DNA of 64,000 nucleotides, from sequence record MK962753.1. One strand, written 5' to 3'. The notes under the pieces are model-generated. The model ran no database searches, was not told the DNA's origin, and worked only from the letters and a program-made list of their open reading frames with translations. The translations under genes were made by a program, and so were the position numbers. Source of the stretch: Shigella phage JK32. This document shows positions 5,352-42,469 of this stretch, in pieces; position 1 is the stretch's first letter, and each line of letters begins with the position of its first letter.

Positions 5352-5359
5352 TATAAATA
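5352..5359 (+). promoter_or_regulatory. T4-type late promoter (TATAAATA) for the accessory module 5397-10265
   Basis: Exact TATAAATA about 38 nt upstream of ATG 5397; RBS AAGGGGAG precedes the ATG. Confidence 0.6.
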
Positions 5360-5396: not shown

Positions 5397-5705
5397 ATGC
5401 ACACACTTATAAAGACCAAAACTCCCGCCGTGTCTGCACCAATTAGCTGCATTCATAGTACCCATATGACGGTACAAATGACAGTTGAAAGTGCTGTACA
5501 AGGGCAAAAAGTTGTCGCAGAGGCTGTTTTAGAAGGTTCTCTCGATGGCAAAGGTTGGTTCACTATTTCAGAATTGAAAGCTGATGGTAATGAATATGCA
5601 ACTGATGGTGGAGCGTTTGAAACATTATGGTCATTTATTCGGGCTAAGGTAAAATCATTATCCAATGGTTCTACCGTAAATGTGTATCTTGCGAAACGGG
5701 GGTAA
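5397..5705 (+). CDS. Hypothetical small late protein (first gene of module between 23 and 24)
   Basis: ORF with good RBS (AAGGGGAG) after a late promoter; no recognisable homologue. Confidence 0.5.
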   Translation: MHTLIKTKTPAVSAPISCIHSTHMTVQMTVESAVQGQKVVAEAVLEGSLDGKGWFTISELKADGNEYATDGGAFETLWSFIRAKVKSLSNGSTVNVYLAKRG

Positions 5706-5708
5706 TGC

Positions 5709-7427
5709 ATGAAGCTAAATCCAGATGCGGTTATTAATGCTGGTTCTGTTGGCGGTGGTACTGGTTCCGGCGGTGGTGGTATTCAGGTCGGAACTAATGT
5801 ACCATGCGGAATTAAAAATACTCATCGTTTCGAAAATGAAGCTGAACGAGACGCATATTTTACCACTAAATTTGCGGAATTGGATCGCCTAAAAACAATT
5901 ATTGTTTGCGGTGGTAAACTTCAATTGTGGACAGGTGCGACTGCCGCATCACCTTATGATAATACCAAATGGGTCGATATGACCTGGGTAATTCAAGGAG
6001 AACAGGGTACTACTGGTGAAAAAGGCGAGAATGGACGAGGTATTGCCAGAATTGAAGCGCAAATCTCTGATGATGATCGCGAATGGAAACTAGAAATTAC
6101 CTACTCAGATTCTACCACAGAAACATTAACTTTCCCTGTACCTGATGTGTTAGCTAATGTTGCGCAACGTCTTACTGCATTAGAGGTAAGATGGACAGCA
6201 ACTGGTCAGCCAGTTAATAACCTTGATGCGACTGTAGATCAGGGTCGTTATCCGGTTGGAGATAACACATACGGTAAGCCACCAATGATGGCAAATAAGG
6301 GGTCTGCTGATGTATATGTCATTGAGGGTAGCATTATTCAAGTGGTTCGTTCTATTGACGGTGGCGTGTACTCTCGTATCCGACACAACGGTCATTGGAG
6401 CGAGTGGGTCTCGCAAAGTGGCGGTGGAAATGGTAGCGGTGGAGGCTTGACGGGTGATCAAGAAGCTATGTTAACTAGCTTAGTTAATCGTCTACCGGAA
6501 ATTTCACCAAATACACGCGATCTTAACACTCTACAGAAGCAAGGTCGTTTCTGTTATGATGAACGTACTACAAACCGCCCTAATGGTACTCAGGTACACG
6601 GGTCGGTAGATGTTCATGCTTGCAAAGATCATGTATTACAAATCGCAACCAGTCTCGATGGTGTCATGTCACATCGCGCACTGGACAAAGCAAACGGTAC
6701 ATGGTCTGAATGGTTGCAGATAAGCGATCATACTGGTGGGGCTACGATTTACGCGTTTCCTAGAGTTTCTAGTGTATTCACCACTTCGCAAAACTTGATT
6801 GAAGTCACAAAACCGGGCGCTGGATTCTTTTATATTCCGTGGAAATATGTTATTCATGATAACTATGGATGCACTCCACAGATCCAACACCCAGACCGTC
6901 AACAAGATGCGGATCATTGGTGGGTATGCCCGAAATCCGGTAGCTATGACATGGAATTATTGCTTGATATGAGTTTTATCAAGACACAAGCAACTATTCC
7001 GGTTCTTGCTGCTGTAACGGCATGGCACAGGAAAGCAGACGGAAGCGAGACAGAAGCCGCACGTTATCAAATCCCGTTTGATGTTACCCAGAAAAACCAG
7101 AAAACAAGATCCGCTAAACTCCGCATTAATAATTTGCCATCCGGCGAGATGATCCGCTGGCAGGTAAAACTCAGTGGTTATAGCTGGAGCGAAACTGATA
7201 ACCCAGACGTAGCATTTGCACCCTTCCGCACTATGCTGATGGTCGATGAAGCAGAATACGACACAGCAAAACGAATTGGTGCTCTTGCGTTCAATACATG
7301 GGCTAACTTCCATGCGAAAAAAGGTTTTGCTGCCGCTGTAAGTGAGGACGAAAATCAGAAAGCACGTCTTAACGCCGTTAAATGGGGTGCTGTCATTGAA
7401 TCCGTCCAAGCTCAGTCACAACCATAA
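5709..7427 (+). CDS. Hypothetical structural protein with Gly-rich and collagen-like (G-X-Y) segments
   Basis: 572 aa; starts 4 nt after previous stop; N-terminal GSVGGGTGSGGGG, five consecutive G-X-Y triplets (GEQGTTGEKGENGRG), second Gly-run GGGNGSGGG. Confidence 0.6.
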   Translation: MKLNPDAVINAGSVGGGTGSGGGGIQVGTNVPCGIKNTHRFENEAERDAYFTTKFAELDRLKTIIVCGGKLQLWTGATAASPYDNTKWVDMTWVIQGEQGTTGEKGENGRGIARIEAQISDDDREWKLEITYSDSTTETLTFPVPDVLANVAQRLTALEVRWTATGQPVNNLDATVDQGRYPVGDNTYGKPPMMANKGSADVYVIEGSIIQVVRSIDGGVYSRIRHNGHWSEWVSQSGGGNGSGGGLTGDQEAMLTSLVNRLPEISPNTRDLNTLQKQGRFCYDERTTNRPNGTQVHGSVDVHACKDHVLQIATSLDGVMSHRALDKANGTWSEWLQISDHTGGATIYAFPRVSSVFTTSQNLIEVTKPGAGFFYIPWKYVIHDNYGCTPQIQHPDRQQDADHWWVCPKSGSYDMELLLDMSFIKTQATIPVLAAVTAWHRKADGSETEAARYQIPFDVTQKNQKTRSAKLRINNLPSGEMIRWQVKLSGYSWSETDNPDVAFAPFRTMLMVDEAEYDTAKRIGALAFNTWANFHAKKGFAAAVSEDENQKARLNAVKWGAVIESVQAQSQP

Positions 7428-7439
7428 TGGGGGTGTATA

Positions 7440-8363
7440 GTGGAACATACAGGAAAAAGGTTGCTAGATCTTAGAAATGGTTTTAATCAGGGTGAAATCA
7501 CAGAAATCACTGGTATGCCAGCTAGTGCTCTCATGGAGGCAGACGTAGGCCGCATATCTAATCAAATCAACACCGAACTAATTGATCCGGTGATTGATTT
7601 TATTATTGCTTGCGATGAAGTTATCGCAAATGCAGCCGAGGATGCTTTAAACAAAGCCGAGAGCGCCGAGAGTATGGCAGAAGTCGCAGACCGAACGGCA
7701 GGTCAATCTATGAGCAAGGCAACCGATGCTCTAGACAAAGCGACGACCGCAGAATCGGAAGCAGGGCGAGCGCATGATCGCTTAGACAAGTTGAACATTC
7801 CACAAATCCCGAACTTAGACGGGCACACATGGAATTGGCTACCACGTTCTTTCGATAGCGTGTCTATTCAGTTGGGAAGCGGTATCACATTAGTTGATCC
7901 AGTGAACGGCAAGCCTCACATTACATGGACACCAATTAGACAGAACTACGAGACAGGAAGATATTACATCGAGGGTCGTTTTGAAGCCAGATTTAAAGTA
8001 ATGTTAATGGACTGGATTCAACAATCATCCGGTGGTCATATTTTCTATCTAGGTGGTGGTCAAAGTCTGGCATCATTTAACGGACGCGTGTCACTGGTGA
8101 ATATCTCGAATGATATAATGAAGCCGACTAATATACAAGTCAACGCATACACTGCCAAAGATACTCAGGTTATTTTCGGTGCGTGTGCTGATGCGGCAAT
8201 TTCAACATCAAGGGAAGTTAAACTAGCTTTCATGGTTGATACTGGAACAGATAAATTTGACCGATATAATGATCCTGTATATGTTGATTTGGTAATGACA
8301 TTCCAACGCGACGGGGAAGGAAATTTCGGATTCGGAAATCTTTTCCCAAGCCTAAATCCTTGA
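7440..8363 (+). CDS. Hypothetical fibre-like protein sharing an N-terminal domain with the next gene (GTG start)
   Basis: 307 aa; GTG start with GGGGG RBS; N-terminal ~50 aa (ALME.D...IS..IN..LI.PVIDFI..CD) conserved with ORF 8421..10265. Confidence 0.55.
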   Translation: MEHTGKRLLDLRNGFNQGEITEITGMPASALMEADVGRISNQINTELIDPVIDFIIACDEVIANAAEDALNKAESAESMAEVADRTAGQSMSKATDALDKATTAESEAGRAHDRLDKLNIPQIPNLDGHTWNWLPRSFDSVSIQLGSGITLVDPVNGKPHITWTPIRQNYETGRYYIEGRFEARFKVMLMDWIQQSSGGHIFYLGGGQSLASFNGRVSLVNISNDIMKPTNIQVNAYTAKDTQVIFGACADAAISTSREVKLAFMVDTGTDKFDRYNDPVYVDLVMTFQRDGEGNFGFGNLFPSLNP

Positions 8364-8370
8364 TCCTATT

Positions 8371-8400
8371 GTCGGGGAGAAATCCCCGACAACGTTTTCT
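8371..8400 (+). terminator. Rho-independent terminator
   Basis: 8-bp stem GTCGGGGA/TCCCCGAC with GAAA loop then ..CGTTTTCT. Confidence 0.6.
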
Positions 8401-8420
8401 AATATCAACGAGGATATGAT

Positions 8421-10265
8421 ATGTTAAGAAACCGTGCAATCAAGTCAACCCCTAATTTCATTCAAGGGGATATGGGAAATATTACCTCAAGAGATAATCA
8501 TGCATTAATGGAGCATGATATTCCAACAATCTCTGACACAATTAACAGGGATCTAATTACACCAGTAATTGATTTTATCAACGAATGCGATAATATTCTA
8601 CTCGATGGAATCGGGACGGTCGCAGATACTGTTGATATTATCGAACGGAAAGCTGATAATGCAACCGAAATTTCTAATTACGCCAGTGAAAAAGCTATCG
8701 AGGCATTGGCAAAATCAAAAGAAAGTTTGACGAAAGCGGAAGAAGCAAACACGGTAGCAAATAGTGTTGCTGGTGATGCGCAAACAGCATTAACTAAAGC
8801 TAATGAGGCTAAAACGCTAGCAGAAAGTCTTAAAACAAAAGTTGATGGTTATGACACCAGAATCACAGAAATTGATTCTAAGGCAACTACAGCTCAATCT
8901 GACGCGTCTTTAGCAAAAGATAAAGCTGATGCACTGGAAACAACGGTCAATAGCGAGAAAACTAAACTGACAGCATTGACTACTAAGGTCGATACTCTAG
9001 AAGGTGATATTATCGATGCTGTGGATCTGGCTGAACAAGCAAAGAATAAAGCCGATTCAGTAGAAACACAAGCCATTAATAACACCACAGAGATTACCGC
9101 TTTAAAAGGCCGTGTATCAACTGTAGAGACACAATCAGCAGAAGCCAATAGACTGGCTACCCAAGCCGATAAAAATGCGTCTACGGCGCTCTCAGACGTT
9201 TCTACGTTATCTTCAAAGGTTGATGATGTTAAGGCTACAGCCGACGCAGCAAGCGCAAGCGTGGCGGGATTAACTCAGGATATCGGAGAAGTGCGGACAC
9301 TGGCAGAAACAGCCACGACAAACATCACAACTCTTTCCGGTAAAGTTGATACCATAAAGACAACCGCAGATACAAACAAGACCAATATTGAAGCATTAAC
9401 CACTCAGGTTAATGAACACACAACTAAGATCGGAGAGTTGGAAACTGGTGTATCTAACGTTAATGGTGAACTTACCACGGTTCAGGAAACCGCAGCTAAT
9501 GCACTTCAAAAGGCCACCAGCGCAGAAACAAAGGCAGGTAATGTAGAGACACTAATTAATAGTCTTACACCGCGTGTGGACGCGTTAGAAGGCGATTTAG
9601 GTACATTAGAGAGCACTGTTGCTGATTTATCTCCTAAAGTGACAGCAGCAACCGAAAAAGCGACTATGGCATTCAACAAAGCAACTGCCTTAGAGCAAAA
9701 AACGGAATCGATGGAAACAGAAATCGAAGATGTTCGCCTCGATGCTGGGACCGCGATGGCAGAAGCGACACAAGCTAATAGTGAGATCGCCACGTTAAAA
9801 ACTAAAGTCGGTGAACTGGAAAGCGATGTTGACACAGCCGATACAATCGCAAATGAAGCATTAGCAGTTGCACAAAGGGCGGATACTAATGCAAATACAG
9901 CCAATACAAATCTTGCAACGATAACACCAATCGTGGAAAGATTGAATGGTGCATTTGTCGGTATGATTCGAATCAGATACAAGGAAACTCGAACTATAAC
10001 GAAAGCTGGCGGCAACACTCGTCGTAAGTTGATAATCCCACAAGTTCGAAAAGGTGATATGGCATTTGCGGCATTTTTAAACGTACCAGATAAACGAGAT
10101 AGTATTCTGTTTAACTGTATGATTCCTGTCGACGGCGAAGTTCACATGGCAATAAAAAATCTGCATACCGCTGCATTAGATTTTAACGATTGGGTTCAAA
10201 TATTGGTATTCCAGACAAGTACGGGTAATCCTATTGTTGACCCAGAAACAAGCCTAACAAACTAA
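8421..10265 (+). CDS. Coiled-coil fibrous protein (fibritin-like architecture), paralogous N-terminal domain
   Basis: 614 aa; conserved N-terminal domain shared with 7440..8363, then roughly 400 aa of A/T/E/K-rich heptad-like repeats, globular C-terminus. Confidence 0.6.
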   Translation: MLRNRAIKSTPNFIQGDMGNITSRDNHALMEHDIPTISDTINRDLITPVIDFINECDNILLDGIGTVADTVDIIERKADNATEISNYASEKAIEALAKSKESLTKAEEANTVANSVAGDAQTALTKANEAKTLAESLKTKVDGYDTRITEIDSKATTAQSDASLAKDKADALETTVNSEKTKLTALTTKVDTLEGDIIDAVDLAEQAKNKADSVETQAINNTTEITALKGRVSTVETQSAEANRLATQADKNASTALSDVSTLSSKVDDVKATADAASASVAGLTQDIGEVRTLAETATTNITTLSGKVDTIKTTADTNKTNIEALTTQVNEHTTKIGELETGVSNVNGELTTVQETAANALQKATSAETKAGNVETLINSLTPRVDALEGDLGTLESTVADLSPKVTAATEKATMAFNKATALEQKTESMETEIEDVRLDAGTAMAEATQANSEIATLKTKVGELESDVDTADTIANEALAVAQRADTNANTANTNLATITPIVERLNGAFVGMIRIRYKETRTITKAGGNTRRKLIIPQVRKGDMAFAAFLNVPDKRDSILFNCMIPVDGEVHMAIKNLHTAALDFNDWVQILVFQTSTGNPIVDPETSLTN

Positions 10266-10294: not shown

Positions 10295-10447
10295 ATGAGC
10301 AAGAAAAAAGATAGCTATGTTCAAATTACCAAGAAACAGTATGATGAATTAATGTTAGCGGTGGCCTATGCCATAATGCGATCTGATTTGGCGATCCAGC
10401 AAATCGAAAAGACAAATAAAAGTCTTGAGAATGTAGCAGCAAATTAA
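10295..10447 (+). CDS. Small hypothetical protein (50 aa)
   Basis: ATG with upstream GGGGA; below the ORF-track length cutoff; ends just before terminator hairpin. Confidence 0.3.
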   Translation: MSKKKDSYVQITKKQYDELMLAVAYAIMRSDLAIQQIEKTNKSLENVAAN

Positions 10448-10453
10448 TTTTTT

Positions 10454-10486
10454 GGGGAATCCTTAACTGGATTCCCCTTTCTTTTA
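10454..10486 (+). terminator. Rho-independent terminator before the gene 24 late promoter
   Basis: 9-bp stem GGGGAATCC/GGATTCCCC followed by TTTCTTTT. Confidence 0.7.
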
Positions 10487-10492
10487 TAAATA
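10485..10492 (+). promoter_or_regulatory. T4-type late promoter (TATAAATA) for gene 24
   Basis: Exact TATAAATA about 38 nt upstream of gene 24 ATG. Confidence 0.65.
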
Positions 10493-10530: not shown

Positions 10531-11772
10531 ATGGCACAGATTTTCAATGAACTGTTAAAGGAATCGACTTCCTCAGTAGCAAACCAGACAGCAAGACCAC
10601 AATTATTGGCACTTACCCGCGCGGTTAACAACCTGATTTTCTCCGATCTGGTGGCAATTCAGCCAACAAATCAGCCTATTTGTGCATTATTCGGACTTCG
10701 TTATGTTAACCGTGATGGTCAAATGACTTATCGTACCGCAGGAACGTATGGTGGTGCGGCTGGTAATCGTGATGTTTTTGAAGATTTTCAGAAAGATAAA
10801 GAATATCAGGTCGGTGATCATTTCAAATTTGATAATGTTGTATATGAAGTGATTACAGAAGGTGCAGTAGGACAGGATATTTCTACCGAAGAAGAAGCGA
10901 TCTTTAAGGGAGTAGTGTCAAATAAAATTCGTTTCTTTAGTGATTATGCACCGACTGAATATTTCGAAGATGCAAACACTGAAATTTCTACTACCGATTT
11001 TGATTTTGAAAAATGGCAAGTTAATGTCGGATCTCGTAAACTGAAAACAGAATTTACTACCGAATTGATGCAAGACCTGGAAGCAAACCAGATGAACTCT
11101 GAAAATACCGTTTTGGATCTTCTTGCTACCGTTGCATCCGAAGAAATCAATAAAGATATTATCCAGAAACTGATTACGGTATCAACTCGTTATAAAGTTA
11201 AGAGCATTACACCTGATGGCGTTCTTTCACTGGTTAACGTTCAGGACGCACCAGCACAAGCGCGTGAACTTTATCGCTATGCATGTGAAATGAGTAATCA
11301 AATGCTTCGCACTTCGTCTTTCGGTGGTACTTATGTTCTTGCATCTTCTCGTGTTGTTGGCCTCCTGCAAGCTAGTGGCTGGATGGAAGAAACTGACAAT
11401 GCACTAAGTGAAGGTCGTTTACGTTGTGGTTTAGAAGTTTATGCGGACACTGTAACCCCGTTTGATTATATGATCGTTGGTTGTAAGCATATGGTTGGTG
11501 ATATGGAGAGCGTAGGTTCTCTGTTCTACTCCCCATATACAGAATCAGACGGAGCGGGTGCATATAAGAGCATCATCGATCCTAATAGCTTCAACCATAA
11601 AGTAGCGATTATGAATAGATATGCTCTTTCTGTCAACCCATACACAACCAAAGCTGATCAAGAAAACAACCAAGTAATCAAGGGTGACGAGTGGGGCAAA
11701 CTTGCCGGACGTTCAGAAATGTCCTACATGCTGGGTATAGAACTGCCACCGCTTGAGATTGACAACGCTTAA
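10531..11772 (+). CDS. 24: Capsid vertex protein gp24
   Basis: 413 aa; aligns along its length with recalled T4 gp24 (e.g. ...LVAIQPTNQP..., KSRKLKT.FT.ELMQDLEAN, FYSPYTE). Confidence 0.92.
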   Translation: MAQIFNELLKESTSSVANQTARPQLLALTRAVNNLIFSDLVAIQPTNQPICALFGLRYVNRDGQMTYRTAGTYGGAAGNRDVFEDFQKDKEYQVGDHFKFDNVVYEVITEGAVGQDISTEEEAIFKGVVSNKIRFFSDYAPTEYFEDANTEISTTDFDFEKWQVNVGSRKLKTEFTTELMQDLEANQMNSENTVLDLLATVASEEINKDIIQKLITVSTRYKVKSITPDGVLSLVNVQDAPAQARELYRYACEMSNQMLRTSSFGGTYVLASSRVVGLLQASGWMEETDNALSEGRLRCGLEVYADTVTPFDYMIVGCKHMVGDMESVGSLFYSPYTESDGAGAYKSIIDPNSFNHKVAIMNRYALSVNPYTTKADQENNQVIKGDEWGKLAGRSEMSYMLGIELPPLEIDNA

Positions 11773-12360
11773 CTAAATATCTAACCAAGACAAATCAGAT
11801 CCGCCCAAGATTTTTTCAACGGCGGATCTATTTTCTTGATGATACAAGTTAAAGCATGGTATCCCATGTCTACGAGCAACATAAACAGCAATTCGAGTCC
11901 CGCCAGAAACAATCCCATTAACTTCTTTCGCCCAAAATAACACACAATCTACAGGATCATCAAGTGTCTCACCTAAGACTTGAGCAACATTTCTAGAAAA
12001 CAGATTTTGCATGTATAACGGTATAGAACGAGGATTATCATAAACGTGTTCTAATTCATCCATCGCCAGATTTTTTTGTTCTAAGGTTTGCCATGCAATC
12101 ACATCATGACCGTTATGCTTGTGGTCATAAAACTTCCAATTTGGAATGAAAATTTTTCTATAATCTGGATCGTAATACTTCATGAAAGCATTGTCCATAC
12201 CGTAAGCCCCTCCAGAATGCGCTACAACGCGATTTTCTGACAATACCCTCCCAATGGTACTAGCCATTATCAAAATGTCGCTAGGCGCTTTTCTAGAGCC
12301 GATTAAAGCACATCTACGAAGCGGTTTTACTCCAACTAGATCTTGTAACTGGTCAAACAT
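11773..12360 (-). CDS. SLOG-superfamily (DprA/Smf/YpsA-like Rossmann) protein
   Basis: 195 aa; motif LIGSRKAPSD...AHSGGAYGMDNA resembles the DprA/SLOG GSR...SGGA.G.D signature; occupies the position of rnlB in T4. Confidence 0.55.
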   Translation of the reverse strand: MFDQLQDLVGVKPLRRCALIGSRKAPSDILIMASTIGRVLSENRVVAHSGGAYGMDNAFMKYYDPDYRKIFIPNWKFYDHKHNGHDVIAWQTLEQKNLAMDELEHVYDNPRSIPLYMQNLFSRNVAQVLGETLDDPVDCVLFWAKEVNGIVSGGTRIAVYVARRHGIPCFNLYHQENRSAVEKILGGSDLSWLDI

Positions 12361-12512
12361 AATATTTCCTCCATAGAAAGCAATATCATACTACAAGTTA
12401 ATAACAAATACAAGTATCCGCGTAGCGGAAGCGAGCACAGCGAGCAATAAAACACTTCCAGTAATTGATTAATAAATGTTCGAAACAAATTTTTATTATT
12501 CTATAAGATAAG

Positions 12513-12538
12513 TCTTCGTTTTGATCATAATTTAATCA
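12513..12538. repeat. 26-nt direct repeat, copy 1 (TCTTCGTTTTGATCATAATTTAATCA)
   Basis: Identical 26-mer recurs at 12662..12687 inside a 410-bp ORF-free AT-rich intergenic region. Confidence 0.8.
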
Positions 12539-12661
12539 TACATGTAAAAACTACACAAAAGGATATCGCTTCGCGAACTCCTACGGAGTATAACATTTGT
12601 GTTACAATATGTATTGATTAATAATTAATCAAAGATACATTTTCTATGTTCTAAAGATCTT

Positions 12662-12687
12662 TCTTCGTTTTGATCATAATTTAATCA
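12662..12687. repeat. 26-nt direct repeat, copy 2
   Basis: Identical to 12513..12538; both copies followed about 20 nt later by ACATGTAAA. Confidence 0.8.
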
Positions 12688-12740
12688 AACAGTATTAATA
12701 TTGTGCACATGTAAACTAAAATTATGTTAATAACAGATAC

Positions 12741-12765
12741 AAAAAAGCCGCCCCGAAGGACGGCT
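12741..12765 (-). terminator. Rho-independent terminator (minus strand)
   Basis: AGCCGCCCCGAAGGACGGCT hairpin with A6 run on + strand (U-run on minus transcript), 9 nt beyond stop of 12774..13211. Confidence 0.65.
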
Positions 12766-12773
12766 AATGTTAA

Positions 12774-13211
12774 TTATTTGTTGATAACGATCTGATTTCG
12801 GCGAATGGTAACATTACTCTTAGAGATGATCAGATCATCCGGCACTACGTTAGTTTTGTATGGCTGGAAGCGAACAAGCATCTGATTGCGTTTAGACCCT
12901 TCCTTAATCTTGATTTCCATCTGGATATTGTTGCCTACGTGAGCAACCGCAATTTCACCTTTATTCTCATAGACCCACTTGCTGGTAACGTCTCCAGCAA
13001 AAGCCTTAATAACTTGCAATGCTTCGTCGTATGCGGTAGAGCTGTGAACTTTCAGAAGGCCAGCCGTCGCCAGACGTGAGCAAGTGATCGCCGGAGACTG
13101 CCAAACATCAACATTAATTTGCTCAATCAGAGTAACACCGCCCTGATCAACTGCTTTGAATGCTTCGAACATTGCTTTTTTCATTGCTACGTGGTTTTTA
13201 CGGAATTTCAT
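12774..13211 (-). CDS. Hypothetical protein (145 aa)
   Basis: Clean ORF bounded by terminator; no recognised domain. Confidence 0.6.
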   Translation of the reverse strand: MKFRKNHVAMKKAMFEAFKAVDQGGVTLIEQINVDVWQSPAITCSRLATAGLLKVHSSTAYDEALQVIKAFAGDVTSKWVYENKGEIAVAHVGNNIQMEIKIKEGSKRNQMLVRFQPYKTNVVPDDLIISKSNVTIRRNQIVINK

Positions 13212-40037: not shown

Positions 40038-40514
40038 TTATTTTTCTTGATGCTCGCGCTCGTACTTTTCGAAATAAAATTCTACTGGCTGGTCGTGGAT
40101 TGACAGTAAGCCAAAGCGTTTAGCCGCTCGCAACCCCATATTGCGCTGAATGTACTTCTGGAAGTTCTCGCGTATACACTTACGCCAGTATTCTAAGCCC
40201 ATACAGCTTTTATAAAGATTGCATTGCACACACGCCGGATTCATGTTATCAAGTATATCATGCTCCGGTTTATGCATTCCTACAACCTTATACTTCCACG
40301 ATCCATCATCATTACGGGCAATTCGTCCATTTTCATCATAGACTACTTTTGAGCGTCGTAATACTGGTTTGATGTGGTCTGCGTGCCAGCGATCCCCTAG
40401 TTCCTCGCCACAATAGGCACAACGTCCACCATATTTCATTTTCAGGATCTGGCGTTGCTCTTTCTTTGACAATTTTTTAGGTTTAGGGGCTTTCGCCCCT
40501 TCATTATCACACAT
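40038..40514 (-). CDS. HNH endonuclease
   Basis: CAYCGEEL....WHADHIKP......CVQCN is a classic HNH motif; sits directly upstream of DNA ligase, overlapping its stop. Confidence 0.7.
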   Translation of the reverse strand: MCDNEGAKAPKPKKLSKKEQRQILKMKYGGRCAYCGEELGDRWHADHIKPVLRRSKVVYDENGRIARNDDGSWKYKVVGMHKPEHDILDNMNPACVQCNLYKSCMGLEYWRKCIRENFQKYIQRNMGLRAAKRFGLLSIHDQPVEFYFEKYEREHQEK

Positions 40515-42009
40515 CGAATACCTCTTTTACTGTATTTGCAGTGGTCTTGTCGTAGCGAATACGTTTGATGATCGGGAGAAATAAAGAGAACTCCGGTTCA
40601 TCTTCTTTACGTGATTTGCTGCGGATATACCCGTTGCATGTCATCTCAATGACTTTTCCAATCAGGTTATGACGGTCAGCCCATAACATTTCTCGGTCAA
40701 GTTCATTTCGACGATCGAACGGAATTACACGTTCGATACCATCATCACCTTTTTCGGTTGTAGTGTCGGTTAATCCCGATCCGGTGTTAGTCATCATTCG
40801 TCCACACGCACTACGGACAGTAAAACCGCCTACCTTATTGGGGTCTTTACTATGCGGATATACATCAACAATTTCCGCGTCGAAGTCAATCACTTCTTTA
40901 AATTTAACCTGATCTTTACTACGGCGATCTTCAAATACACCATGCAGATTTTTAAGGATAATACCTTCTAAGCCCATGTTTACATAGCGATGATATACTT
41001 CGCGAGCTTCATCGATATTGTTAACTACAGTATTTTCGATTATCTGAACACGAGGATCGTTAAGTTCTTCAACAATCTGTTTTAGTTCTTCGAATCGATC
41101 TTTATATTGCTTCGTTGCTTTCTCGTTTCCGTAATACACATCACGGTCGATAACATCCCAGACAGTGTAAACAATACATTGGGCTTCTTCTTTTGGAATA
41201 GTTCCTTTCAGTGATTTGTTGAGGATACCATTTCCGGTCTGACGATCTGCAACAACGGATTCTTTCACTGCTTCCGCTACTGGCGTTAATGGCATTTCCT
41301 CTTCTTCAAATATCCATGACAGAGTACCATCATAAACGCTCTCAACGAAGTTCTGCGCTGGTGTTTGCGAAAGGGTAGGCATATATACCAATTCGCCATC
41401 TAGAACAATTCCACGGCCTCGTAGACGCTCTAAAACCGCAAACAAATCATCAAGCCCCTGATAGGTATTACCTGAACGGGTATAGATTGCTAATGTTTCC
41501 CCGTCAATATCAGCCATACCACGAGCGCCATCGCTTTTAAGTTGTGCATATGCAGGATATTTGATATTAGCAATGGCCTTATCAGAATATGACGATGCAA
41601 GGTGGCACGGCTGCTGGGGGATCAGTTTCTTCCATACCTTGTTTGCAGTGGTAGCGGAACAACCGCATTCCAGATCACGATTCAGGACCATCATTGCAAC
41701 TTTAGCATCATCTTCTGACAAGCAAGTCAGAGTATCGGTAACTAGCTGTAATGCTGCATTACCAGTTACTTGACGCGTGGCAAGTTTATTTTTAAAGACC
41801 TGTAATGCACCGGATAAAGACAATACAGACGAATAACGCGATGGTTTATCGTATTTCTTTACGCCAAACGTAACCTGTTTGCAATATGCCAGATAAAAGC
41901 ATTCTTTCAGCGTTTCATTGCTTGCAGATTCTTTCAGAATCTTTTCTTTCAGCGATGTTTTGTCTGTTGCTGCAAGCTGATTAATGATATTAAGAATTGA
42001 CATTTTCAC
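40507..42009 (-). CDS. 30: ATP-dependent DNA ligase gp30
   Basis: 500 aa; KxDG adenylation motif (AQLKSDGARG); T4 gene 30 position. Confidence 0.9.
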   Translation of the reverse strand: MKMSILNIINQLAATDKTSLKEKILKESASNETLKECFYLAYCKQVTFGVKKYDKPSRYSSVLSLSGALQVFKNKLATRQVTGNAALQLVTDTLTCLSEDDAKVAMMVLNRDLECGCSATTANKVWKKLIPQQPCHLASSYSDKAIANIKYPAYAQLKSDGARGMADIDGETLAIYTRSGNTYQGLDDLFAVLERLRGRGIVLDGELVYMPTLSQTPAQNFVESVYDGTLSWIFEEEEMPLTPVAEAVKESVVADRQTGNGILNKSLKGTIPKEEAQCIVYTVWDVIDRDVYYGNEKATKQYKDRFEELKQIVEELNDPRVQIIENTVVNNIDEAREVYHRYVNMGLEGIILKNLHGVFEDRRSKDQVKFKEVIDFDAEIVDVYPHSKDPNKVGGFTVRSACGRMMTNTGSGLTDTTTEKGDDGIERVIPFDRRNELDREMLWADRHNLIGKVIEMTCNGYIRSKSRKEDEPEFSLFLPIIKRIRYDKTTANTVKEVFDV

Positions 42010-42469
42010 CTCGTTTTGTTAAACGTTCACGAATATCATTGAGGATACTACAAAATTCCGATTCGGTCAATATGGTCTTTAACGGATCTGATCCACCTAT
42101 GCTATGACGTAATTTCTTATTTCCGGTAGCGAGTAATGCTTTACAAAATTCTGGGTTATTCCGTGCCATCGTAACAAATGCCAGATGTACCAGTCTGTAA
42201 TAATGCTCACTCATTCGATGAATCTGGCGACCCTGAAAATATAACATGTGATTCTCAACCTTTTCAGTCCTTCCGGTTCTTTTTGCTTTGCCACCGTGCA
42301 TCAAAAAGATTTCTCTTTGTCTCTGAGGGTTCTTAAATCTTAGACCCTGTAAAAATCCTTCTGTGCTGTTAATATCGCAACCAAATAGACGGAATGGTCT
42401 TTTATTGAAGTTGCTCAATTCACCCGATGGATAAGGTCCACCCGCATAGATATCAATTTCAGAAGTCAT
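41990..42469 (-). CDS. NADAR/YbiA-like (DUF1768) protein
   Basis: YAGGPYPSGELSNFNKRPF...SEHYYRLVHLAF resembles the NADAR domain signature (G..LSNF ... EH.YQ). Confidence 0.55.
   Translation of the reverse strand: MTSEIDIYAGGPYPSGELSNFNKRPFRLFGCDINSTEGFLQGLRFKNPQRQREIFLMHGGKAKRTGRTEKVENHMLYFQGRQIHRMSEHYYRLVHLAFVTMARNNPEFCKALLATGNKKLRHSIGGSDPLKTILTESEFCSILNDIRERLTKRGENVNS

What the first reader, a model, noticed from the sequence alone, without database searches (positions are those of the whole stretch)
11773..12360. SLOG/DprA-like Rossmann protein in place of rnlB next to gene 24
The 195-aa protein has the GSR...H-SGGA-x-G-x-D arrangement typical of the SLOG superfamily (DprA/Smf, LOG, YpsA). 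Members bind or process nucleotides and ssDNA, and some are linked to nucleotide-signalling conflict systems. I do not recall a T4 equivalent; T4 has RNA ligase 2 at this position.
Basis: partly seen in the sequence, partly recalled or inferred. Interest (0 to 1): 0.5.

Follow-up and report, generated by a model that had tools for sequence, protein, structure and literature searches.

The report
DprA-like SLOG protein beside gene 24
This is a real, well-conserved phage gene for a small nucleotide- or DNA-binding protein of a family already catalogued in about 1,300 phage genomes; nobody has tested what it does, so the identification is sound but ordinary.

Summary
The 195-aa ORF at 11773-12360 (minus strand) is real. 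It has a GGAGG ribosome-binding site and evolves under purifying selection. The window is a Krischvirus (RB49/JSE-like) genome.

By sequence it is not a Pfam DprA member (22.3 bits against a cut-off of 29.6). It belongs to phage family PHROG 768 (E 2e-60), found in 1,342 phage records and already annotated "DprA-like" in RefSeq.

"In place of rnlB" holds only for position. T4 has 24|rnlB. Six other Straboviridae genera have rnlB-SLOG as an adjacent pair, overlapping (TAATG) where I read the junction. A sequenced Krischvirus genome has SLOG but no rnlB anywhere.

Elsewhere the family is fused to NADAR, DUF4326, RecJ and a PD-(D/E)XK nuclease, and it lies near NAMPT and DNA ligases.

My best reading is a DprA-style binder of single-stranded nucleic acid, or of a modified base, that helps phage repair or anti-ADP-ribosylation enzymes. 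The function is untested. Interest is low to moderate.

The parts
11773..12360 (-). SLOG-fold, DprA-like protein gene (195 aa), a member of PHROG 768
12292..12300 (-). G21-S22-R23 loop, equivalent to DprA signature motif 1 (G-S/T/A-R)
   Evidence: Translation. G21 and R23 are invariant and S22 is at least 90% conserved in 47 relatives. The equivalent Arg52 of H. pylori DprA and R139 of ShosA are needed for ssDNA binding (PMC3950713, PMC12961424).
12193..12219 (-). H-SGGAxGxD loop after strand 2; G50, G54 and D56 are invariant
   Evidence: It aligns with SGGALGVD of H. pylori DprA and SGLARGID of E. coli Smf.
11989..12003 (-). L120-F-S-R123-N124 helix motif, equivalent to DprA signature motif 2 (F/L/Y-x-x-R-N/D)
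   Evidence: R123 is invariant and N124 is at least 90% conserved. Motif definition and mutagenesis are in PMC3950713.
11896..11904 (-). Invariant G153-G154-T155 loop. Counting from the conserved Thr, the position of the LOG catalytic Glu (PGGxGTxxE) is Ala158.
   Evidence: The register to the LOG motif is my own reading, not a computed alignment. The LOG motif is quoted from PMC3950713.
12368..12372 (-). Shine-Dalgarno GGAGG, 7 nt upstream of the ATG
12746..12765 (-). Intrinsic-terminator-like hairpin (8 bp, 6 GC pairs, then a T run) that closes the upstream gene 12774-13211. It separates the SLOG gene from the upstream transcription unit by a 385-nt untranslated gap.
   Evidence: sequence
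12513..12686 (-). Two exact 25-nt direct repeats (12513-12537 and 12662-12686) in the leader region upstream of the SLOG gene. Role unknown; they may be promoter or regulatory elements.
   Evidence: 2 matches, 0 expected by chance, and none elsewhere in the window
10531..11772 (+). Gene 24 (capsid vertex protein), the convergent neighbour, with late-promoter motif TATAAATA at 10485-10492

Best explanation
The gene encodes a single-domain SLOG (Rossmann-like) protein of a large, mostly phage-borne family (PHROG 768). Its nearest characterised relatives are the ssDNA-binding Rossmann domains of DprA and ShosA. Proposed mechanism: like DprA, it docks one base or nucleotide of a single-stranded nucleic acid into a small pocket built from the GSR loop, the SGGAxGxD loop, the LxxRN helix and the GGT loop. 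That base may be ADP-ribosylated or part of an adenylylated end. In this way it recruits or assists phage enzymes that repair or de-modify nucleic acids, such as RNA ligase 2, DNA ligases, NADAR/AdfN-type ADP-ribosyl-DNA hydrolases, DUF4326 and nucleases. It probably does not load a recombinase. It is probably expressed before the late genes. SHOWN: the ORF, its fold, its motifs, its family, purifying selection, its gene neighbours and its domain fusions. INFERRED: the ligand, the partners, any catalysis and the expression timing.

For: Motifs: both motifs proposed as DprA signatures in PMC3950713 are present. Their arginines, R23 and R123, are invariant in 47 relatives. The equivalent arginines are required for ssDNA binding in HpDprA and ShosA. 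The LOG catalytic Glu position is Ala158.

Fusions: family members are fused to NADAR (5 proteins), DUF4326 (3), RecJ (1) and a PD-(D/E)XK nuclease (1). [quoted passage not shown]

Neighbours: rnlB and SLOG are adjacent in six Straboviridae genera at two different genome positions, with a TAATG overlap in the two junctions read. The SLOG gene abuts or lies inside the split NAD-dependent ligase genes of T5-like phages. In 73 unselected IMG/VR loci, NAMPT lies within 5 kb in 7, NADAR in 5 and DUF4326 in 4, always on the same strand. Among the two nearest large ORFs on each side of about 75 non-redundant loci (150 ORFs in all), no recombinase family appears in the 25 most frequent of 71 Pfam families.

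Timing: no TATAAATA late-promoter motif lies upstream, the gene is on the strand opposite the late capsid genes, and it has its own terminator-bounded leader.
Against: No member of the family has been tested experimentally in any paper I could find.

By sequence only the N-terminal ~45 residues resemble DprA: Pfam gives 22.3 bits against a cut-off of 29.6, hhalign against E. coli Smf gives probability 18%, and a profile of the C-terminal half finds no DprA.

The window protein is mildly acidic (pI 6.4; family median 7.9).

The neighbourhoods are heterogeneous. About one in six unselected loci carries an NAD/ADP-ribose gene nearby, and ClpP, dCMP deaminase and PhoH are about as frequent as neighbours.

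A sequenced Krischvirus genome has no rnlB at all, and in this window the NADAR-like gene lies 30 kb away. So no partner is visible in this phage.

The NAMPT association and the precedent of ThsA-SLOG binding cADPR fit a small-molecule ligand equally well.
Confidence: 0.45

Rival explanations
1. It is a sponge or hydrolase for soluble NAD+-derived molecules. On this reading the SLOG pocket binds or cleaves free ADP-ribose derivatives (for example cADPR isomers, or ADPR) made by host NADase or TIR defences. This is the prediction of Iyer, Burroughs and Aravind for viral SLOG domains.
Confidence: 0.2
2. It is a classical DprA-type recombination mediator. On this reading it coats ssDNA and loads the phage recombinase UvsX (or host RecA), as the database name 'DNA recombination-mediator protein' implies.
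For: The DprA-like fold and ssDNA-binding motifs are present. Jumbo-phage genomics suggested DprA/Smf copies could serve as an extra ssDNA-binding protein (PMC7824862). ShosA binds RecA.
Against: A sequenced Krischvirus genome already encodes the dedicated mediator UvsY as well as UvsX and gp32. No recombinase family appears in the 25 most frequent of 71 Pfam families among 150 neighbouring ORFs. The protein lacks the SAM and winged-helix domains of full-length DprA. The DprA region that carries dimerisation and RecA contacts is not detectably conserved by sequence.
Confidence: 0.12
3. It is a nucleotide N-glycosidase of the LOG type. On this reading it hydrolyses AMP or another nucleotide to a base plus ribose-5-phosphate, feeding PRPP to phage NAMPT and nucleotide salvage.
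Against: By my reading of the motif register, the LOG signature PGGxGTxxE is not met, because Ala158 sits at the catalytic Glu position. LOG proteins show lower sequence identity (11-15%) than DprA.
Confidence: 0.07
4. It is an antitoxin mimic. On this reading it is an orphan ShosA/PsyrA-like protein that neutralises host ShosTA or PsyrTA (PRTase toxin plus DprA-like antitoxin) defence systems.
Against: The matches cover only the generic N-terminal motif (residues 17-61). ShosA is 308 residues with extra regions, and its antitoxin action needs dimerisation and RecA binding. The fusions and the ligase linkage are not explained by mimicry.
Confidence: 0.06

Closest known systems
DprA/Smf Rossmann-fold domain (Pfam PF02481; structures 3maj, 4ljk/4ljr, 3uqz)
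ShosA / PsyrA antitoxins of the ShosTA and PsyrTA defence systems (structure 8zva)
   Different: ShosA is larger (308 aa), acts as a dimer with RecA, and is encoded beside its toxin. The phage protein is a 195-aa stand-alone domain with no toxin neighbour. NAMPT is a different class of PRTase.
Viral SLOG domains of the NAD+/ADP-ribose network (Iyer, Burroughs, Aravind and colleagues 2022, PMC9503650)
   Same: It is the same kind of protein: a stand-alone phage SLOG domain, enriched in larger phages, with fusions to NADAR and DUF4326. This is effectively the prior description of the family.
LOG / PpnN nucleotide phosphoribohydrolases and the ThsA SLOG cADPR sensor
   Different: The LOG catalytic motif PGGxGTxxE is absent. 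Sequence identity is only 9-15%.

Membership tests
SLOG superfamily (Rossmann-like; DprA, LOG, YpsA, MCP, ThsA C-terminal domain) | Three-layer alpha/beta fold with structural similarity to solved SLOG members | tested here: met
SLOG superfamily | Gly-rich loops after strand 1 (GSR) and strand 2 (SGGAxGxD), plus the GGT loop that lines the pocket | tested here: met
   G21, R23, G50, G54, D56, G153, G154 and T155 are invariant in 47 relatives.
PHROG 768 (phage 'DprA-like DNA recombination-mediator protein') | Full-length match to the family HMM | tested here: met
   E 2e-60, 204.6 bits, residues 15-187 against profile positions 4-181 of 191. 1,342 phage records hold a homologue.
DprA/Smf (Pfam PF02481, TIGR00732) | Score above the curated family threshold | tested here: not met
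   PF02481 scores 22.3 bits against a cut-off of 29.6, over residues 15-60 only. TIGR00732 scores 14.4 bits against 191. 44 of 47 relatives hit PF02481, with best E 2.9e-6; the ten members whose scores I saw were all below its cut-off. hhalign against E. coli Smf gives probability 18%.
DprA/Smf | Signature motif 1, G-S/T/A-R, in the loop after the first core strand (PMC3950713) | tested here: met
   G21-S22-R23
DprA/Smf | Signature motif 2, F/L/Y-x-x-R-N/D, in the pocket helix (PMC3950713) | tested here: met
   L120-F-S-R123-N124. R123 is invariant and N124 is at least 90% conserved.
DprA/Smf | Binds ssDNA, dimerises, and interacts with and loads RecA | not testable with these tools
   Needs biochemistry. 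Context gives no support: no recombinase family appears in the 25 most frequent of 71 Pfam families among 150 neighbouring ORFs.
LOG / lysine-decarboxylase-like (PF03641) | Catalytic motif PGGxGTxxE | tested here: not met
   The sequence is S-G-G-T-R-I-A. Counting from the conserved Thr, Ala158 (at least 90% conserved) occupies the Glu position. No Pfam LOG hit was found.
YpsA / YspA-YAcAr viral SLOG families (PF06908, PF10686) | HMM match, or closest structural similarity | tested here: not met
ShosA/PsyrA antitoxin (ShosTA, PsyrTA) | Encoded next to a PRTase-domain toxin, with a full-length match to the antitoxin model | tested here: not met
   The PADLOC matches are weak and limited to the N-terminal motif (E 4e-5 and 3.5e-4, residues 14-61). 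The neighbours in the window are gene 24 and small PHROG families of unknown function.

The most novel reading that the evidence does not exclude
The family may be an uncharacterised counter-defence or repair factor for chemically modified nucleic acid. It would recognise, and perhaps cleave, the N-glycosidic link of an ADP-ribosylated base in ssDNA or RNA (DarT-type damage). Alternatively it would recognise the chemically similar A(5')pp(5')N adenylylated end left by abortive ligation. It would then hand the strand to NADAR/AdfN, DUF4326 or a ligase (Rnl2, LigA). That would explain in one model why it travels with rnlB, sits inside split NAD-ligase genes, and fuses to NADAR, DUF4326, RecJ and a PD-(D/E)XK nuclease. 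It would also give T4 RNA ligase 2, whose biological role is (to my knowledge) still unclear, a testable partner.
Probability: 0.2. Interest if true: 0.65.

Novelty: already known. Interest (0 to 1): 0.3.

Why it matters
As an identification it adds little. The same protein (up to 99.5% identical) is already in GenBank and RefSeq, named 'DprA-like' through PHROG 768, and phage SLOG domains have been surveyed computationally.

Three points are still worth keeping:
- The database name 'recombination mediator' is an untested transfer, and the gene context does not support it.
- The gene forms a conserved pair with RNA ligase 2 in many T4-like phages, translationally coupled where I read the junction. 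T4 lost one partner and Krischvirus lost the other. This gives a simple comparative handle on the unknown biology of Rnl2.
- Its fusions to NADAR, now known as an anti-DarT DNA de-ADP-ribosylase, make the family a reasonable candidate for a further anti-defence or repair activity.

The family occurs in about 2.6% of sequenced phage genomes and in thousands of metagenomic clusters, and no member has been characterised.

Tried and rejected
- **rnlB remnant.** tblastn with three Rnl2 proteins found nothing in the 413-bp gap upstream of the gene, in the 64-kb window, or in the whole KFS-EC Krischvirus genome. Controls were positive. The idea of a decayed rnlB is rejected.
- **DprA by sequence in the C-terminal half.** A profile of residues 112-195 against PDB sequences gave only chance hits. 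hhalign against E. coli Smf aligned only 44 N-terminal columns. Pfam-level DprA membership is rejected.
- **Structured RNA in the upstream gap.** Rfam gave only a sub-threshold TarB hit that overlaps the terminator.
- **Sigma-70 promoter or late promoter for the gene.** None was found convincingly in 12361-12745 on the minus strand. The promoter remains unidentified.
- **A single dominant gene neighbour across the family.** A Pfam census of 150 neighbouring ORFs showed no dominant partner.
- **Literature.** Six full-text searches found only homology-based mentions and no experiment on this family.
- **Tool limits.** The afdb50 fold library was not available.
- **Cellular homologues.** Only 48 loci turned up among 185,579 species. 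36 of them are one Sphingomonadaceae element next to a DUF1173 gene. This scan used two exact peptide patterns, so it is a lower bound.

Full report
**Observation.** The window holds an ATG-initiated ORF of 195 codons at 11773-12360 on the minus strand. A GGAGG sequence lies 7 nt upstream of the start codon. The ORF converges on gene 24 (10531-11772, plus strand) with no spacer. Megablast places the window in Krischvirus (RB49/JSE-like Straboviridae) at about 91% nucleotide identity. The ORF itself is more conserved than its surroundings. It differs from the JSE, Skers and KFS-EC orthologues at 15-17 of 588 nt, with 11-15 synonymous and 2-3 nonsynonymous codon changes. It is therefore a real gene under purifying selection.

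**What it is.** Pfam gives only a sub-threshold match to DNA_processg_A (22.3 bits against a cut-off of 29.6, residues 15-60). NCBIfam dprA scores 14 bits against a cut-off of 191. PADLOC gives weak hits to the N-terminal motif of PsyrA and ShosA. PHROGs, in contrast, gives a full-length match to phrog_768, 'DprA-like DNA recombination-mediator protein', at E 2e-60.

tblastn finds homologues in 1,342 of 50,697 phage records from many host genera. An exhaustive HMM search of 1.84 billion cluster representatives finds 4,315 clusters at E <= 1e-3. Most of the 150 listed are stand-alone proteins of about 180 aa.

More precisely, this is a distinct phage family whose nearest characterised relative is the DprA Rossmann domain.

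**Membership in DprA proper.** The paper on the H. pylori DprA-ssDNA structure proposes two signature motifs, G-S/T/A-R and F/L/Y-x-x-R-N/D. It shows that Arg52, Arg143 and Asn144 hold a flipped-out base, and that R52E and R143E reduce affinity by 170- to 315-fold (PMC3950713). The same arginines are needed for ssDNA binding by ShosA (PMC12961424). Both motifs are present here, and R23 and R123 are invariant across the 47 relatives. By my reading of the motif register, the LOG catalytic motif PGGxGTxxE is not met, because Ala158 sits at the Glu position.

The resemblance to DprA by sequence stops after about 45 residues. A profile of the C-terminal half finds no DprA. hhalign against E. coli Smf gives probability 18%. 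The protein is mildly acidic (pI 6.4; family median 7.9). I therefore do not file it as a DprA family member, although I think it most likely binds its ligand in the same way DprA does.

**'In place of rnlB'.** T4 has 24 | rnlB | 24.2 | 24.3 | hoc, with rnlB 29 bp from gene 24 and no SLOG gene in that interval. Winklervirus and Jiaodavirus have 24 | SLOG | rnlB, with the rnlB stop codon overlapping the SLOG start codon (TAATG). Karamvirus and Moonvirus records show the same adjacency. Slopekvirus and Pseudotevenvirus keep the rnlB-SLOG pair at a different genome position, with NAMPT about 1.3 kb downstream.

The complete genome of Krischvirus KFS-EC contains no Rnl2 homologue, although it has RnlA, PseT, UvsX, UvsY and gp32. 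The 413-bp gap upstream of the SLOG gene in the window holds no rnlB remnant. The simplest reading is an ancestral rnlB-SLOG pair from which T4 lost the SLOG gene and Krischvirus lost rnlB. The SLOG protein therefore does not depend strictly on Rnl2. One GenBank record (Skers) labels the SLOG gene 'putative RNA ligase'. This looks like a positional mis-annotation.

**Wider context of the family.** In T5-like phages the gene overlaps, or lies between, the split NAD-dependent DNA ligase genes. In Pakpunavirus it lies near NAMPT and a phosphatase. In phAPEC8 no partner is evident.

I took a Pfam census of the two nearest large ORFs on each side of about 75 non-redundant loci. It shows RNA ligase (5), ClpP (5), SF1 helicases (4), NADAR (3), dCMP deaminase (3), NAPRTase/NAMPT (2), NAD-dependent ligase (2), ATP-dependent ligase (2) and others. 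No partner dominates, and no recombinase family is among the 25 most frequent of 71 Pfam families. With my own HMMs on 73 unselected IMG/VR loci, NAMPT lies within 5 kb in 7, NADAR in 5 and DUF4326 in 4, always on the same strand.

Multidomain relatives fuse the SLOG domain to NADAR (5 proteins), DUF4326 (3), RecJ (1) and a PD-(D/E)XK nuclease (1). Cellular genomes rarely carry the family. The scan found 48 loci in 185,579 species, and 36 of them belong to one Sphingomonadaceae element next to a DUF1173 gene. That scan used two exact peptide patterns, so the count is a lower bound.

**Literature.** Iyer, Burroughs, Aravind and colleagues (PMC9503650) described viral SLOG domains fused to Macro, NADAR and DUF4326. 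They predicted that these domains sense or degrade soluble ADP-ribose derivatives. Their jumbo-phage paper suggested that phage DprA/Smf copies could act as extra ssDNA-binding proteins. Since then NADAR has been shown to remove ADP-ribose from guanine in DNA, and T4 gp30.3 (AdfN) has been shown to counter DarTG1 (PMC11543638, PMC11257639). I found no experiment on any member of the SLOG family studied here. Other papers only repeat the homology-based name.

**Expression.** The gene lies on the strand opposite the late capsid genes. A strong terminator-like hairpin at 12765-12746 ends the upstream gene. A 385-nt leader follows, containing two exact 25-nt direct repeats. No TATAAATA late-promoter motif lies upstream, whereas gene 24 has one at 10485. 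I infer expression before the late phase, but I could not identify the promoter.

**Mechanism.** I think the most likely reading (0.45) is a DprA-style pocket binder of single-stranded nucleic acid, possibly of a modified base. It would assist phage repair or de-modification enzymes. This reading fits the invariant DprA arginines, the ranking of structural matches, the fusions to enzymes that act on DNA, and the ligase linkage.

The main rival (0.2) is the Aravind-type reading that the protein handles soluble ADP-ribose signals. The NAMPT linkage and the ThsA precedent support it. A classical UvsX/RecA-loading role (0.12) is what the database name implies, but the gene context does not support it and UvsY already fills that role. 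LOG-like hydrolysis (0.07) and ShosA/PsyrA mimicry (0.06) are less likely. All functional statements are inferences, and the experiments listed under next steps would separate them quickly.

**Verdict.** The protein belongs to an already catalogued, uncharacterised phage family. The modest added value is threefold: the database name should be treated with caution, rnlB and SLOG form a conserved pair, and the family is tied to enzymes that reverse nucleic-acid ADP-ribosylation.

Noticed in passing
window 5709-10265 (+): Three large ORFs (572, 307 and 614 aa) lie between gp23 and gene 24, downstream of a TATAAATA late-promoter motif at 5352. PHROGs gives no convincing family. Most Krischvirus genomes lack this block (their match stops near 5406 and resumes at 10442). 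A subgroup of larger genomes (UPWr_E1, G2248, Brandy, SSG23) shares part of it at about 81-84% identity. The 614-aa Ala/Thr/Glu-rich coiled-coil ORF has no full-length match in 50,697 phage records. It may be a late capsid-associated fibre or decoration cassette.
   Followed up: partly
window 12513-12537 and 12662-12686 (-): There are two exact copies of GATTAAATTATGATCAAAACGAAGA, 149 bp apart, in the 385-nt gap between the terminator at 12765-12746 and the SLOG start codon. The sequence occurs nowhere else in the window (0 expected by chance). Each copy contains TATGAT and starts a tiny ORF (MIKTK...). Function unknown.
   Followed up: partly
window 41990-42469 (-) and 40507-42009 (-): A 159-aa ORF that weakly matches my NADAR profile (E 2e-5) and PHROG 652 sits directly upstream of the ATP-dependent DNA ligase (gp30) and overlaps it by 20 nt. 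This is the T4 30.3 position. T4 gp30.3 is AdfN, the anti-DarTG1 DNA ADP-ribosylglycohydrolase (PMC11257639). So this phage carries NADAR next to a ligase and the SLOG gene elsewhere, while other phages fuse NADAR to SLOG.
   Followed up: partly
L002 2316-2903 (Escherichia phage vB_EcoM_Skers, MW748999.1): The orthologue of the SLOG gene is annotated 'putative RNA ligase'. This looks like a positional transfer from T4 rnlB. The protein has no ligase similarity.
   Followed up: yes
L108-L148 (Sphingomonadaceae genomes), e.g. L118 4989-5501: Of the 48 cellular loci found, 36 form a single SLOG-protein cluster (at least 75% identity) in Novosphingobium, Sphingobium and related bacteria. In the one locus I examined (L118) the gene lies next to a 654-aa DUF1173 protein among small unknown ORFs, which suggests a plasmid or ICE. 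In an Armatimonadota genome (L111) the SLOG domain is fused to a PD-(D/E)XK nuclease.
   Followed up: partly
L087 4266-9011 (IMG/VR contig); proteins P0017 and P0019: Very large proteins (1,475-1,581 aa) contain this SLOG domain. P0017 and P0019 also carry a YAcAr-type SLOG domain, an LDcluster4-type SLOG domain and a C-terminal NADAR domain. These are polyvalent-protein-like architectures with several SLOG paralogues in one chain.
   Followed up: no
window 11770-11775: Gene 24 and the SLOG gene converge, with their stop codons abutting (TAA at 11770-11772 on the plus strand; the complement of CTA at 11773-11775). There is no intergenic base and no terminator between them, so late transcripts of gene 24 would run antisense into the SLOG gene.
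   Followed up: no
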